Assembly (NCBI RefSeq): GCF_057098645.1
Contig: NZ_CM169472.1
Reading direction: 5' to 3' (one strand)
DNA length: 64,000 nt
Shown: positions 3,001 through 6,000 of the stretch, in pieces
Layout: the number at the start of each line of letters is the position of its first letter
Numbering within the stretch: position 1 is the stretch's first letter
Position numbers: made by a program

Positions 3001-6000
3001 TTAACTGCCAGTGGCAACACTCACCCTAAATTTACGCGCGGTGATATTTACCGCGACCAGTACGGCGGCACGGTAATGATTAAGGGCGTGGCGGGACGGT
3101 GCGTAACTTACCGCCGTGAAGGTTACGAATATGATTGCGTGATGCCTGTTTATCAGTTCCGGCGTGATTTTTCTCTGGTACAGACCGCGCCGCATAACGT
3201 GCCCACCAGCAACGCCAGGGCACGGGCAAACATCCAGAAGCTGAAAACCATGATTAACGGATTCAGGGGCAAGAAATGAAAAGCGCACCGAACTTAAAAA
3301 AACAGCCTTACGACAAGATGACCGAAGTCATTATTTTTGCGGGTAGTGATGCCTGGGCACATGCGAAACAGTGGCAGGAACAGGACGGGCGACTGGCTGG
3401 CGATAATGTGCCTCCCGTTGTGCTGGCTGATGATCAACTGGATGAACTGGCAGACCTGATAATCATCGACGAGGGGCGCTATTGTGTCCGGCTGTACAAG
3501 GCAGGCCACATCAGGCCATCAAATATTAATGCCATTGCGCACAAGCTGGCGGCGGCGGGTGTAACTGATGCGAATTATTACCCCGAAGGGATGCACAGCC
3601 ATATGCGGGAGAACTGGCGCGAATACCTGGAACGGGTGCGCGGGAAAGAGCCGGCGGAAGAAAAAAACCACCAGCGAAAAACCACGCTACCGATGAGCGT
3701 TGGATCTACCGGATACGACACGCAACTGGATTACGTGGTTAAGGGGATTATTCCGGCGGTATCGCTATGCAGCATATACGGGGCTAGCGGGTCCTATAAA
3801 TCATTCCTTGCCGGATCGTGGGCGTGCCATGTTGCCACTGGTCGCCAGTGGGGAGGCCGCAGGGTTGCACATGGTGCGGTTCTCTATGTGGTTGGTGAAG
3901 GCGGTATAGGTGTTCCGCGTCGTGTAAAAGCCTGGGAGGTTGTGCACGATGAGCAGGTGAAAAATCTGTATCTGGTAAACCGCCCCATCTTTCCGGCTGC
4001 CCCGCTTGATGTTGATGAAATGGTTATCGCTGCCCGTCAGGTGGAGCGGGAAACGGGTAAACCTGTACGCATGATTATTCTGGATACGCTGGCGCGTTGC
4101 TTTGGTGGGAATGATGAAAATGATTCCCGTGATATGGGGGCGTTTATCCGTGGTTGTGACGAACTGAAACGACGCACAGGGGCCACGGTGCTGGTGGTTC
4201 ACCATTCCGGCAAGGATGAGACGAAAGGCGCGCGCGGTTCCAGTGCATTTCGTGCTTCGCTGGATGCTGAATACCGGATACGCAGGGAGGACGCAGGAAG
4301 CGAAGCGCTGGTTATCTCATGCACCAAAATGAAGGACGCGGAGGAACTCAAAGAAGCCGCATATGACTTACGCGTGGTGGAGCTTTTTACCGACGCTGAC
4401 GGTGAATTAATCACGTCGCTGGTGGTGGTGGATGATCCGCGCCCTCCTGTTGAACTGGAGCGCATCGAGGAGGCAGGGAACAAGACGGAAAACCATACCG
4501 CGCTATGGCAGTGCATCAGAACACGAACAGCACACGGGGAGGCGTGCACTATCGCCCTTCTCCGCGACGATATGAAAAAGCTGGGGTATGAGATGAAGCA
4601 CTTCCGGCGCTGGCTGTACAAGCTGGAAAATGATGGCGTAATCGTTATTGACGGTGATGACGTGCGCCCGCTGTAAAAAGTGGGGAGTAAAAGTGGGGAG
4701 AGCGGGGAATTTAACAAAATTGAAACATAATTACCCACTTTCCCACCTGTATATACCCAAAAAAGTGGGGAGTAAAAAATATATTGAAAAACATCACGTT
4801 AGAATCACAAAAAAAAGAGGTGGGGAGACGGTGGGTAATTTCAAAAAGTGGGGAGCAAAAGTGGGGAGTAGTGGGGAATGAACAGAAAAACCAGAGATAA
4901 GACAGCGCCAAAATATAAAGCGTTAGACATGACTGAGCACACCTTAAAGGTGGCAATCAGAACGATAGACCGCCACACGCGGGAAGGATACGCGAAGGAA
5001 CATCCCGACCTGATAAGCGCATTCATGACCACGGCGGCGGCAAACTTTGCCACGCTGACAGAACGGGAGATTGCCGAAGCGGAACAGGTAACAACCATCA
5101 ACGTTAAAACCGGAGAGGTGGAATTATGACGGCACAGATAGCCGCTTACGGGCGGCTGGTGGACGACCCGCAGGTAAAACAGACCAGCAAGGGCACACCG
5201 ATGACGCTGGCGCGTATGGCGGTATCTTTGCCATGCAGCCAGGCACAGGACGGACAGGCGACGTTATGGTTATCGGTCATCGCATTTGGCAAACAGGCCG
5301 ACTTCCTGGCTAAACATCAAAAAGGCGATGTTGCCAGCGTATCCGGCACGATGCAGGTCAGCCAGTGGACCGGACAGAACGGAGAAACGCGGCAGGGCTG
5401 GCAGGTTATCGCAGACAGCGTAATCAGTGCCCGCGCGGCACGTCCAGGCGGGAACAGACGCAAAACCACAGGCACACAGGGTAATCAGCCACCAGCGGGA
5501 GGCGATGACCCTTACGGTGATGATATTTCGTTCTGAGGGGGTGACGATGGTACATGACCGCATAGCGGAGGAACTGGAGGCGAAAGGCTTTTACCGGAGG
5601 GCGGCGGCGCGATGGGGTGAAGTCATGCAGCTGGTGGAGACAGACAAGGAACGGCATCATATCACGATGCGACGGCTGGAATGTTCCAGGAAGGCACAGA
5701 GGCCACCGGAGCCGCCGGATAATTACGGAGACCTGAAAAAGGCGGTCGATCGCACTTATGCCGAAATGGGTATGGATGGTGCTGGTGATGAAATATGGCG
5801 AAATTACCAGGACAGATAATCACACAGCCGGAGCAATCCGGCTTTTTGTCATGTTTTGTAAATTATTTGTTCGTGGTTGTTCCACGTTGTTCACTGAGTG
5901 GATCGGCATATTTTACCCGAACTGAATCATGATTATTCTCGCCCGTGGTGCCAGGACGCTGGGGCCATTTTCCCGCCTGTTAATGTGCTCGCCAATATTC

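What the first reader, a model, noticed from the sequence alone, without database searches (positions are those of the whole stretch)
5126..5536. Island-encoded SSB-like protein with a host-SSB-like acidic tip
The C-terminus DDPYGDDISF resembles the DDDIPF tip that E. coli SSB uses to recruit replication and repair proteins. A satellite SSB with this tip could plug into, or compete for, the host SSB interactome during replication.
Basis: partly seen in the sequence, partly recalled or inferred. Interest (0 to 1): 0.4.

Follow-up and report, generated by a model that had tools for sequence, protein, structure and literature searches.

The report
Satellite-island SSB with a mutant-like tip
The gene is an ordinary single-stranded-DNA-binding protein in the replication module of an E. 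coli phage-satellite island; its relatives end in the host-type docking tip (…DDIPF), but this copy ends in …DDISF, the same Pro-to-Ser change as the classic defective E. coli mutant ssb-113.

Summary
ORF 5126-5536(+) encodes a 136-aa protein ending DDPYGDDISF. It is a true SSB: it passes the curated cut-offs of Pfam PF00436 and TIGR00621, it matches solved bacterial SSBs, and its AlphaFold model is an OB fold (residues 1-101) with a disordered tail. RefSeq already calls it "single-stranded DNA-binding protein", and the exact sequence is on at least 1000 contigs.

It lies in a capsid-forming PICI-type satellite (int, alpA, RepA-type helicase, iteron origin, orf83, ssb, perC, then capsid to TerL, with no tail or lysis genes). 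It is translationally coupled to the upstream gene, about 260 bp from the candidate origin.

The host-like tip is a family trait: 107 of 111 close relatives end in …IPF, and the wider clade follows P-F-D-D-x-[IL]-P-F. This copy has Ser at the penultimate position. That is the ssb-113 (P176S) change, which in E. coli SSB weakens binding to χ, ExoI, PriA, RecQ, RecG and others. The Ser allele is common (exact match in 323 of 5426 complete E. coli genomes). It appears to have spread by recombination across islands with three helicase types.

Most likely this is a replication SSB for the island whose coupling to host partners is attenuated in this allele. It is ordinary in kind, with one modest curiosity.

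The parts
5126..5536 (+). ssb gene of the island (136 aa plus stop)
   Evidence: ORF. Pfam SSB PF00436 E=1.7e-16, 60.6 bits against cut-off 26. TIGR00621 57.3 bits against cut-off 53.95. phrog_44 'single strand DNA binding protein' 1e-39. PGAP names it SSB in near-identical loci.
5126..5428 (+). OB-fold ssDNA-binding domain (residues 1-101)
   Evidence: AlphaFold2 pLDDT 94-98, with strands 3-11, 16-19, 25-36, 44-54, helix 55-62 and strands 69-82, 88-101. All top Foldseek PDB hits are bacterial SSBs, E about 1e-9, TM (target) 0.7-0.83. Equivalents of EcSSB W54, F60 and W88 are W48, F54 and W81. W48 and F54 are at least 90% conserved in the family alignment.
5429..5503 (+). Short disordered linker (residues 102-126, SARAARPGGNRRKTTGTQGNQPPAG), basic at its start
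   Evidence: pLDDT 58-67 with no secondary structure. Its length and sequence vary among alleles of 136, 140, 141 and 149 aa.
5504..5533 (+). Acidic C-terminal tip DDPYGDDISF (residues 127-136)
   Evidence: Sequence read directly. Compare the EcSSB tip DFDDDIPF. Family conservation is given.
5528..5530 (+). Codon 135, TCG = Ser. Relatives have CCG = Pro. The residue is equivalent to EcSSB Pro176, which is Ser in ssb-113.
   Evidence: TCG against CCG.
5112..5118 (+). Shine-Dalgarno-like GGAGAGG, 7 nt upstream of the ATG
   Evidence: Read directly.
4878..5129 (+). 83-aa gene of unknown function (phrog_1231), translationally coupled to ssb through an ATGA overlap
   Evidence: The same gene (WP_000192401.1) precedes ssb in L001, L002 and L007.
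4677..4868 (+). Iteron cluster, the candidate island replication origin: five exact AAAGTGGGGAG copies, a degenerate copy and an inverted repeat, flanking A+T-rich DNA
   Evidence: There are 5 exact copies within 192 bp and no exact copy elsewhere in the 64 kb. Shuffles give a mean of 0.94 matches at up to 1 mismatch, and 0 of 100 shuffles reach 6.
3276..4676 (+). RepA-family (AAA_25) helicase, the presumed island replication initiator and helicase
   Evidence: Pfam AAA_25 7.8e-44. phrog_2850, and phrog_906 'DNA polymerase/primase'. PGAP calls it 'helicase RepA family protein'.
2980..3279 (+). DUF4222 gene that precedes the helicase in all related islands
5547..5819 (+). PerC-family transcriptional regulator, always immediately downstream of ssb
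   Evidence: Pfam PerC 1.7e-43. The ssb-perC pair is conserved in L001, L002, L005 and L007-L011.
5826..5852 (+). Terminator-like hairpin plus T-run after perC, the likely end of the orf83-ssb-perC transcription unit
   Evidence: This is a consensus scan only; the number of terminator-like sites found did not exceed the number in shuffled sequence.
6063..12448 (+). Packaging module of the satellite: HK97-type capsid, S78 prohead protease, portal, head completion protein, head-tail connector, HNH endonuclease, TerS and TerL. No tail or lysis genes.
   Evidence: Pfam hits and the PGAP annotation of the near-identical island.
18..1068 (+). Left end of the island: C-terminal part of a tyrosine integrase (18-515, cut by the window start) and AlpA-type regulator (880-1068)
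   Evidence: Full-length integrases occur in L001 and L007.

Best explanation
The gene encodes a genuine bacterial-type SSB: an OB-fold domain, a short disordered linker and an acidic C-terminal tip. It belongs to the replication module of a phage-inducible chromosomal island of the capsid-forming type.

Inferred mechanism: after induction, the island's initiator-helicase opens the adjacent iteron origin. The island SSB, co-translated with the upstream small gene, coats the exposed single strands. This supplies extra SSB capacity at a time when helper-phage and island replication compete for the host pool.

In the family at large, the tip (...P-[YF]-x-D-D-I-P-F) is a copy of the host SSB-Ct docking motif. 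It would therefore let island ssDNA recruit host replisome and repair proteins (Pol III chi, DnaG, PriA and others), which the island does not itself encode.

In this allele the penultimate Pro is Ser, the ssb-113 change. Host-partner docking is therefore predicted to be weakened, so this copy would act mainly as an ssDNA coat. The Ser haplotype is intact, abundant and has spread by recombination among island backbones, so it is at least tolerated.

Shown here: family membership, fold, tip conservation, the Pro->Ser difference, genomic context and allele distribution. Inferred: ssDNA binding, oligomeric state, the role in island replication, and the effect of Ser on partner binding.
For: SSB family and fold:
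- Pfam, TIGR00621 and PHROG hits above the curated cut-offs.
- phmmer against the PDB finds 26 SSB chains, best 6e-11.
- AlphaFold model with pLDDT 94-98 over residues 1-101 and a disordered tail.
- Foldseek top hits are all bacterial SSBs.
- 26% identity to EcSSB (E=8e-10), with the W54, F60 and W88 equivalents kept.

Replication-module context:
- The gene order is DUF4222, helicase, iterons, orf83, ssb, perC.
- ssb always follows the initiator-helicase, even though that gene is of five unrelated types: AAA_25, DUF927, D5_N/DUF5906, Zn-primase-helicase and VapE.
- This argues for a generic replication role and for host partners rather than an island-specific one.

Tip:
- It is conserved across the family and matches EcSSB DDIPF.
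- ssb-113 = P176S, with its binding defects (PMC3045619, PMC3159472).

Ser allele:
- The exact 70-mer occurs in 323 of 5426 complete genomes, against 154 for the Pro version.
- The exact protein is on at least 1000 contigs.
- Ser alleles share an identical 3' block while their 5' parts diverge.
Against: - ssDNA binding, tetramerisation and every partner interaction are inferred.
- EcSSB W40 and His55 are not conserved (C37 and L49), so the DNA-wrapping mode and oligomer interface may differ from EcSSB.
- In the wider clade the penultimate residue is fairly free (P 42, G 10, S 4, A 4, N 4 of 74). Pro may therefore matter less for this clade's partners than for EcSSB's, and the ssb-113 analogy may overstate the defect.
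- The counts of Ser against Pro genomes are biased by heavy sequencing of clonal STEC lineages.
- No paper on a PICI SSB was found.
Confidence: 0.7

Rival explanations
1. The tip docks onto the island's own replication protein (helicase or initiator) rather than onto host SSB partners, in the way the acidic C-termini of T7 gp2.5 and T4 gp32 bind their own phage replisome proteins.
For: ssb lies directly downstream of the initiator-helicase gene in every locus examined. The T7 SSB C-tail is described as binding T7 polymerase and helicase-primase (PMC13402713).
Against: Nearly the same SSB and tip are combined with at least five unrelated helicase or initiator families, and the Ser-tip haplotype with three of them. 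A single tip is unlikely to be tailored to all of them. The tip consensus equals the host motif.
Confidence: 0.12
2. The Ser tip is an adaptive 'uncoupled' SSB. It coats ssDNA but fails to recruit host SSB-interacting enzymes. This would shield island intermediates from SSB-stimulated nucleases and recombinases, or interfere with helper-phage or host replication, which is the competition idea of the first reader.
For: ExoI is stimulated by wild-type SSB/ssDNA but not by SSB113/ssDNA at low substrate concentration, and it is inhibited on tip-less SSB/ssDNA (PMC3159472). The Ser haplotype is abundant, intact and spread by recombination onto different island backbones.
Against: Most alleles (107 of 111 close representatives) keep Pro. 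The Ser abundance may only reflect clonal STEC sampling and hitch-hiking with the adjacent perC block. There is no evidence of an interference phenotype.
Confidence: 0.12
3. The Pro->Ser change is a neutral or slightly deleterious polymorphism in a gene that is dispensable because host SSB suffices. In this reading the allele has no special function.
For: It is a single C->T transition. The penultimate position is variable in the wider clade. Host SSB is present in every cell.
Against: The ORF is full-length and highly conserved wherever it was seen, and it is retained beside very different replication modules, so the gene itself appears to be under selection.
Confidence: 0.2
4. The island SSB acts in phage-defence signalling, as a trigger or decoy for SSB-sensing systems such as Retron-Eco8, Hna, AbpAB or DARNA, rather than in replication.
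For: Several defence systems sense non-host SSBs.
Against: There are no PADLOC hits for ssb or its neighbours. The gene sits in the replication module and not in an accessory-gene slot. The known triggers are SSBs of lytic phages such as T7 and T4 (for T7 SSB; the abstract of PMC10732053 for Gp32), which belong to other SSB families as far as I know.
Confidence: 0.04

Closest known systems
E. coli chromosomal SSB (PDB 1eqq/4mz9; TIGR00621/PF00436)
   Same: Same family and OB fold. The W54, F60 and W88 equivalents are kept. Both have a disordered tail ending in an acidic, Phe-terminated tip: the family consensus DDIPF equals the last five host residues, and the aromatic at -6 is kept as Y.
   Different: Only 26% identity. 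It has 136 aa against 178, and a linker of about 25 aa (basic at its start) instead of about 60 Gly/Gln/Pro-rich residues. W40 is replaced by Cys and His55 by Leu. It scores far below the enterobacterial chromosomal SSB model (NF006533: 28 bits against cut-off 260). The penultimate residue is Ser in this copy.
E. coli SSB113 mutant protein (ssb-113, P176S)
   Same: The same residue change at the same position of the tip (...DDISF against ...DDDISF). According to the literature, SSB113 keeps ssDNA binding but is defective for binding chi, ExoI, RecQ, PriA, Topo III, RecG and Pol V.
   Different: SSB113 is a laboratory mutant of the essential host protein and is temperature-sensitive lethal. Here the Ser is a natural, widespread allele of an accessory SSB in a cell that still has wild-type SSB. 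The upstream tip context also differs (YGDD against FDDD).
SSBs of conjugative plasmids and phages (F-plasmid-type SSB, NF010292/PRK13732; phage SSBs, phrog_44)
   Same: Both are accessory SSBs carried by mobile elements, with a host-like tip. This gene matches phrog_44 strongly. From my own knowledge, not tested here, F and P1 SSBs can substitute for the host SSB.
   Different: It is not a member of the plasmid SSB subfamily (23.9 bits against cut-off 265). There is no close homologue in 50,697 deposited phage genomes (best about 35% identity). The clade is found in satellites and islands and in small 'plasmid' records of Enterobacterales.
Capsid-forming PICIs (cf-PICIs) of Enterobacterales
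   Same: [quoted passage not shown]
   Different: The cf-PICI paper that I searched does not mention an SSB (0 occurrences of 'ssb'). Its role in the element has not been studied, as far as the searched literature shows.

Membership tests
Bacterial SSB family (Pfam PF00436 / TIGR00621) | The sequence matches the family profile above the curated threshold | tested here: met
   PF00436 60.6 bits (cut-off 26), residues 5-99. TIGR00621 57.3 bits (cut-off 53.95).
Bacterial SSB family (Pfam PF00436 / TIGR00621) | OB fold (five-stranded barrel with a helix between strands 3 and 4) | tested here: met
   AlphaFold2 model with pLDDT 94-98 for residues 1-101. The Foldseek top 50 PDB hits are all bacterial SSBs.
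Bacterial SSB family (Pfam PF00436 / TIGR00621) | Aromatic ssDNA-stacking residues (EcSSB W40, W54, F60, W88) | tested here: inconclusive
   W54, F60 and W88 align with W48, F54 and W81. W40 aligns with C37. W48 and F54 are at least 90% conserved in the clade.
Bacterial SSB family (Pfam PF00436 / TIGR00621) | Binds ssDNA and forms a homotetramer (or an equivalent assembly of four OB folds) | not testable with these tools
   Needs EMSA or fluorescence titration, and SEC-MALS or mass photometry. EcSSB His55 (tetramer interface) is Leu here.
[quoted passage not shown] | C-terminal Phe carrying the free carboxylate | tested here: met
   F136 is followed by the stop codon. 111 of 115 close relatives end in F.
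[quoted passage not shown] | Acidic run preceding a hydrophobic residue at -2 | tested here: met
   D132, D133 and I134, plus D127 and D128 further upstream. This is two adjacent Asp rather than three.
[quoted passage not shown] | Penultimate Pro | tested here: not met
   S135 (TCG, 5528-5530). Pro is present in 107 of 111 close relatives. The change equals ssb-113 P176S.
[quoted passage not shown] | Binds host SSB-interacting proteins (chi, ExoI, PriA, RecQ and others) | not testable with these tools
   Needs peptide-binding assays or pull-downs.
Enterobacterial chromosomal SSB (NF006533) and plasmid SSB (NF010292) subfamilies | Score above the subfamily cut-off | tested here: not met
   28.3 bits against cut-off 260, and 23.9 bits against cut-off 265.
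Capsid-forming PICI (the element that carries the gene) | [quoted passage not shown] | tested here: met
   Searches give the Pfam hits. Host genes (a ydgD-like trypsin peptidase) lie at 14738-15559, and the related genome has the island inside tqsA. The integrase is cut by the window start, so the full size (about 14 kb) is inferred from L007.
Capsid-forming PICI (the element that carries the gene) | Induction by a helper phage and packaging into its own small capsids with helper tails | not testable with these tools
   Experimental.

The most novel reading that the evidence does not exclude
The Ser-tipped allele may be a naturally selected 'uncoupled' SSB: an ssb-113-like protein that coats ssDNA without recruiting host SSB-interacting enzymes. 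It would either protect satellite replication and packaging intermediates from SSB-stimulated nucleases and recombinases, or act as a dominant interfering coat on helper-phage or host ssDNA. It would have been spread by recombination (together with the start of perC) across satellites that have different replication and packaging modules.
Probability: 0.12. Interest if true: 0.55.

Novelty: new member of a known kind. Interest (0 to 1): 0.27.

Why it matters
If the family tip really docks host partners, these satellites carry their own adaptor for the host replisome. That would help explain how islands with interchangeable helicases, and no recognisable polymerase gene of their own, replicate efficiently during helper-phage infection. 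The natural Pro/Ser polymorphism at the exact ssb-113 position is a ready-made allelic pair. It could be used to test how much SSB-tip docking matters for a mobile element, in a setting where the change is not lethal. The gene's identity itself is routine and already annotated.

Tried and rejected
1. Context of distant homologues: P0139 and P0194 lie only on 1-2 kb metagenome contigs, which was uninformative.
2. The small genes upstream of ssb: the window's 83-aa phrog_1231 protein and the 126-aa Klebsiella protein share no detectable similarity, so there is no conserved 'partner' gene. Pfam and NCBIfam give nothing credible for the 83-aa protein.
3. Defence-system link: there are no PADLOC hits for ssb, orf83, perC, the helicase or DUF4222.
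4. Phage origin: there is no close relative in the deposited phage genomes.
5. Literature on a PICI or cf-PICI SSB: none was found. A broad search for SSB-Ct in mobile elements returned only irrelevant papers.
6. Promoter scan around ssb: nothing above the shuffle expectation on the + strand.
7. A second SSB in the window: none, and no host ssb is present.
8. Recurrent-mutation origin of the Ser allele: judged less likely than recombination of one haplotype, because Ser alleles share an identical 3' block. It is not formally excluded.
9. The first three family scans failed because I gave a wrong perC start coordinate. They were repeated.
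Full report
**1. The observation**

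The window has an ATG-initiated ORF at 5126-5536 (+) of 136 codons. Its product ends ...NQPPAGGDDPYGDDISF. A GGAGAGG Shine-Dalgarno-like element lies 7 nt upstream. The start codon overlaps the stop of the preceding 83-codon ORF (ATGA), so the two genes are translationally coupled. It is the only one of 392 stop-to-stop ORF segments of at least 60 aa in the window that ends [DE][DEN][ILVM]xF.

**2. What the protein is**

It is a real SSB, shown by sequence and by predicted structure.
- Pfam SSB (PF00436) matches residues 5-99 with E=1.7e-16, at 60.6 bits against a cut-off of 26.
- NCBIfam TIGR00621 'ssb' scores 57.3 bits against a cut-off of 53.95.
- PHROG 44, 'single strand DNA binding protein', gives 1e-39.
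- phmmer against the PDB returns 26 SSB chains, best Thermotoga maritima 1z9f at 6e-11 and E. coli 1eqq at 1.5e-6.
- An AlphaFold2 model built on a 74-sequence alignment has pLDDT 94-98 over residues 1-101. Its strand-strand-strand-helix-strand-strand order is that of an OB fold. Residues 102-136 have low confidence (58-67) and no structure.
- The Foldseek top hits in the PDB are all bacterial SSBs, with E about 1e-9 and target TM 0.7-0.83.

Against E. coli SSB, whose sequence I verified as identical to 1eqq, identity is 26% (E=8e-10). The W54, F60 and W88 equivalents are kept as W48, F54 and W81. W40 is Cys and His55 is Leu. The protein does not belong to the enterobacterial chromosomal SSB subfamily or to the plasmid SSB subfamily (28 and 24 bits against cut-offs of 260 and 265).

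**3. It is already annotated**

The exact protein is in the public collection on at least 1000 contigs, as 'MULTISPECIES: single-stranded DNA-binding protein [Enterobacteriaceae]'. PGAP gives the same name in all near-identical loci. The 1.1-kb region matches 1706 of 5426 complete E. coli genomes.

**4. Context**

The gene lies in a phage satellite of the capsid-forming PICI type. The gene order in the window is:
- a tyrosine integrase, cut by the window start;
- AlpA and several small genes;
- DUF4222 (2980-3279);
- an AAA_25 RepA-family helicase (3276-4676);
- a 200-bp spacer, then the 83-aa gene (4878-5129), ssb, and a PerC-family regulator (5547-5819);
- a terminator-like hairpin (5826-5852);
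- HK97-type capsid, S78 protease, portal, head-completion protein, connector, HNH, TerS and TerL (6063-12448).

There are no tail or lysis genes, and host genes follow. In a related genome the island splits tqsA. This fits the published cf-PICI criteria (10.1101/2025.02.11.637232).

The spacer between the helicase gene and the 83-aa gene holds five exact copies of AAAGTGGGGAG within 192 bp, plus a degenerate copy and an inverted repeat around A+T-rich DNA. No exact copy exists elsewhere in the 64 kb, and 0 of 100 shuffles reach the observed count. This is most simply read as the island's iteron origin, about 260 bp upstream of ssb.

**5. The replication-module association is general**

In other loci the ssb-perC pair is preserved while the gene in front of it changes family. 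The types seen are AAA_25 (L001, L002, L007), DUF927 (L008), D5_N+DUF5906 (L009-L011), a Zn-finger primase-helicase (Klebsiella, L005) and VapE (Enterobacter, L006). The packaging module also varies, with the HK97 set in some and a Phage_cap_E plus decoration-protein set in others.

An SSB that stays constant beside interchangeable helicases is more likely to serve a generic step, such as coating ssDNA or contacting host factors, than to be the dedicated partner of one island helicase.

No close homologue exists in 50,697 deposited phage genomes; the best is about 35% identity. Relatives do occur in small 'plasmid' records of Klebsiella, Enterobacter, Serratia and Sodalis.

**6. The tip**

| Set | Full-length proteins ending in F | Positions counted back from the terminal F (position 0) |
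|---|---|---|
| Close cluster representatives (at least 72% identity) | 111 of 115 | -7 P 108; -6 Y 101; -4 D 109; -3 D 80 or N 26; -2 I 110; -1 P 107, S 4 |
| 50%-identity representatives of the wider clade | 74 of 117 | -6 F 44; -5 D/N 66; -4 D 64; -2 I/L/V/M 63; -1 P 42, G 10, S 4, A 4, N 4 |

The clade consensus P-F-D-D-x-[IL]-P-F is essentially the EcSSB tip D-F-D-D-D-I-P-F. The host-like tip is therefore a conserved feature and not a chance match.

**7. The twist**

This copy has Ser at the penultimate position (TCG at 5528-5530), where relatives have CCG. That is the same substitution, at the same place, as E. coli ssb-113 (P176S).

According to the literature read here, ssb-113 is temperature-sensitive for replication and hypersensitive to DNA damage. 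SSB113 keeps ssDNA binding but is defective for binding ExoI, RecQ, PriA, Topo III, RecG, Pol V and the chi subunit of Pol III (PMC3159472; PMC3045619). Pro176 is proposed to make a hydrophobic contact with chi Y131 and to restrict the flexibility of the tail.

If the same rules apply, this allele should be a much poorer docking site than its ...DDIPF sisters. The caveat is that the penultimate position is comparatively free in the wider clade.

**8. The Ser allele is not an error or a rarity**

- An exact 70-nt match across the tip occurs in 323 of 5426 complete E. coli genomes, including O157:H7, O26 and O145. The same 70-mer with CCG occurs in 154. These counts are biased by clonal STEC sampling.
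- Within its 90% cluster, the window's sequence is the most frequently seen member among those read (40 of 1200).
- Ser alleles occur with three helicase types and both packaging types.
- At the DNA level, Ser alleles share an identical 3' block. This covers at least the last 81 nt of ssb and essentially the next 60 nt, including the start of perC (one difference in L008). Their 5' parts differ from the window at 34-42 positions. The Pro allele L010, which has a similar 5' part to L009, differs from the window in the downstream block.
- This pattern points to one Ser haplotype moved by recombination rather than to repeated mutation. The allele is at least tolerated in apparently intact islands.

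**9. Mechanism proposed**

Shown here: family, fold, disordered tail, conserved tip, Pro->Ser, operon context, iterons and allele distribution.

Inferred:
- On induction, the island helicase unwinds the iteron origin.
- The island SSB coats the single strands and adds SSB capacity while helper and island replication compete for the host pool.
- In Pro-tipped alleles, the tail recruits host replisome and repair proteins that the island does not itself encode.
- In this Ser-tipped allele, that coupling is attenuated.

Rivals, each detailed in its own section:
- The tail is specific for the island's own helicase. This is disfavoured by the helicase interchange.
- The Ser tip is an adaptive 'uncoupled' or interfering SSB. 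This is possible but unsupported.
- The Ser is a neutral polymorphism in a dispensable gene.
- The protein has a role in SSB-sensing defence.

**10. Comparison and novelty**

The protein is a member of the bacterial SSB family by curated thresholds and by fold. It is not a member of the chromosomal-enterobacterial or plasmid SSB subfamilies. It fails one defining feature of the canonical SSB-Ct, the penultimate Pro.

Accessory SSBs with host-like tips on plasmids and phages are long known; I state this from my own knowledge. No paper on a PICI SSB was found. I rate it a new, uncharacterised member of a known kind that is already correctly named by annotation pipelines.

Interest is low to moderate. 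The only unexpected element is the widespread natural ssb-113-type tip, which offers a convenient Pro/Ser allelic pair for experiments.

Noticed in passing
window 4677-4868: Five exact copies of AAAGTGGGGAG, plus a degenerate copy and a 19-nt inverted repeat (4729-4747 / 4822-4840), lie in the 200-bp spacer between the RepA-helicase gene and the 83-aa gene. No exact copy exists elsewhere in the 64 kb. This is the probable iteron origin of the satellite.
   Followed up: partly
window 4878-5129: An 83-aa protein (phrog_1231, function unknown, no credible Pfam or NCBIfam hit) is translationally coupled to ssb. The Klebsiella island has an unrelated 126-aa protein in the same slot.
   Followed up: partly
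window 5547-5819; L001, L002, L005, L007-L011: A PerC-family regulator always follows ssb, even when the helicase and packaging modules differ. The Ser-tip haplotype is linked to the 5' end of perC. PerC may control the packaging operon that starts about 250 bp downstream.
   Followed up: no
L002 (E. coli O157:H7 PV15-279, roxA-phoQ site), L008, L009-L011: The islands are strongly mosaic. The same ssb-perC block is joined to AAA_25, DUF927 or D5_N/DUF5906 initiators, and to either an HK97 capsid-protease-portal-TerL set or a Phage_cap_E plus decoration-protein plus TerS-only set.
   Followed up: partly
L005 (K. pneumoniae NZ_CP033626.1, 22.9-kb 'plasmid'), L006 (E. hormaechei pEho8-4, 15.5 kb): Small circular records typed as non-mobilizable plasmids carry a related SSB next to a primase-helicase or VapE gene. 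The Klebsiella record also has an integrase, PerC and a duplicated HTH/AntA/DUF4222 segment. It may be an excised or concatemeric satellite rather than a plasmid. The Enterobacter ssb is annotated as 104 aa and, as translated, lacks the tail and tip.
   Followed up: no
L007 (E. coli 14EC001) 1-819 and 16365-16508; window about 12.5-14 kb: In the closest syntenic genome the island is inserted in tqsA (AI-2 transporter), leaving two pseudogene fragments. A near-identical island sits at a different site (roxA/phoQ) in other strains. The same strain, DETEC-S792, matches at both a roxA-phoQ island and a ydgD-side locus.
   Followed up: no
window 1126-2295 (+): A 389-codon open frame spans a region where related islands are annotated with several short genes on both strands (YlcI/YnfO-like, Icd-like). 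It is probably not a real gene.
   Followed up: no
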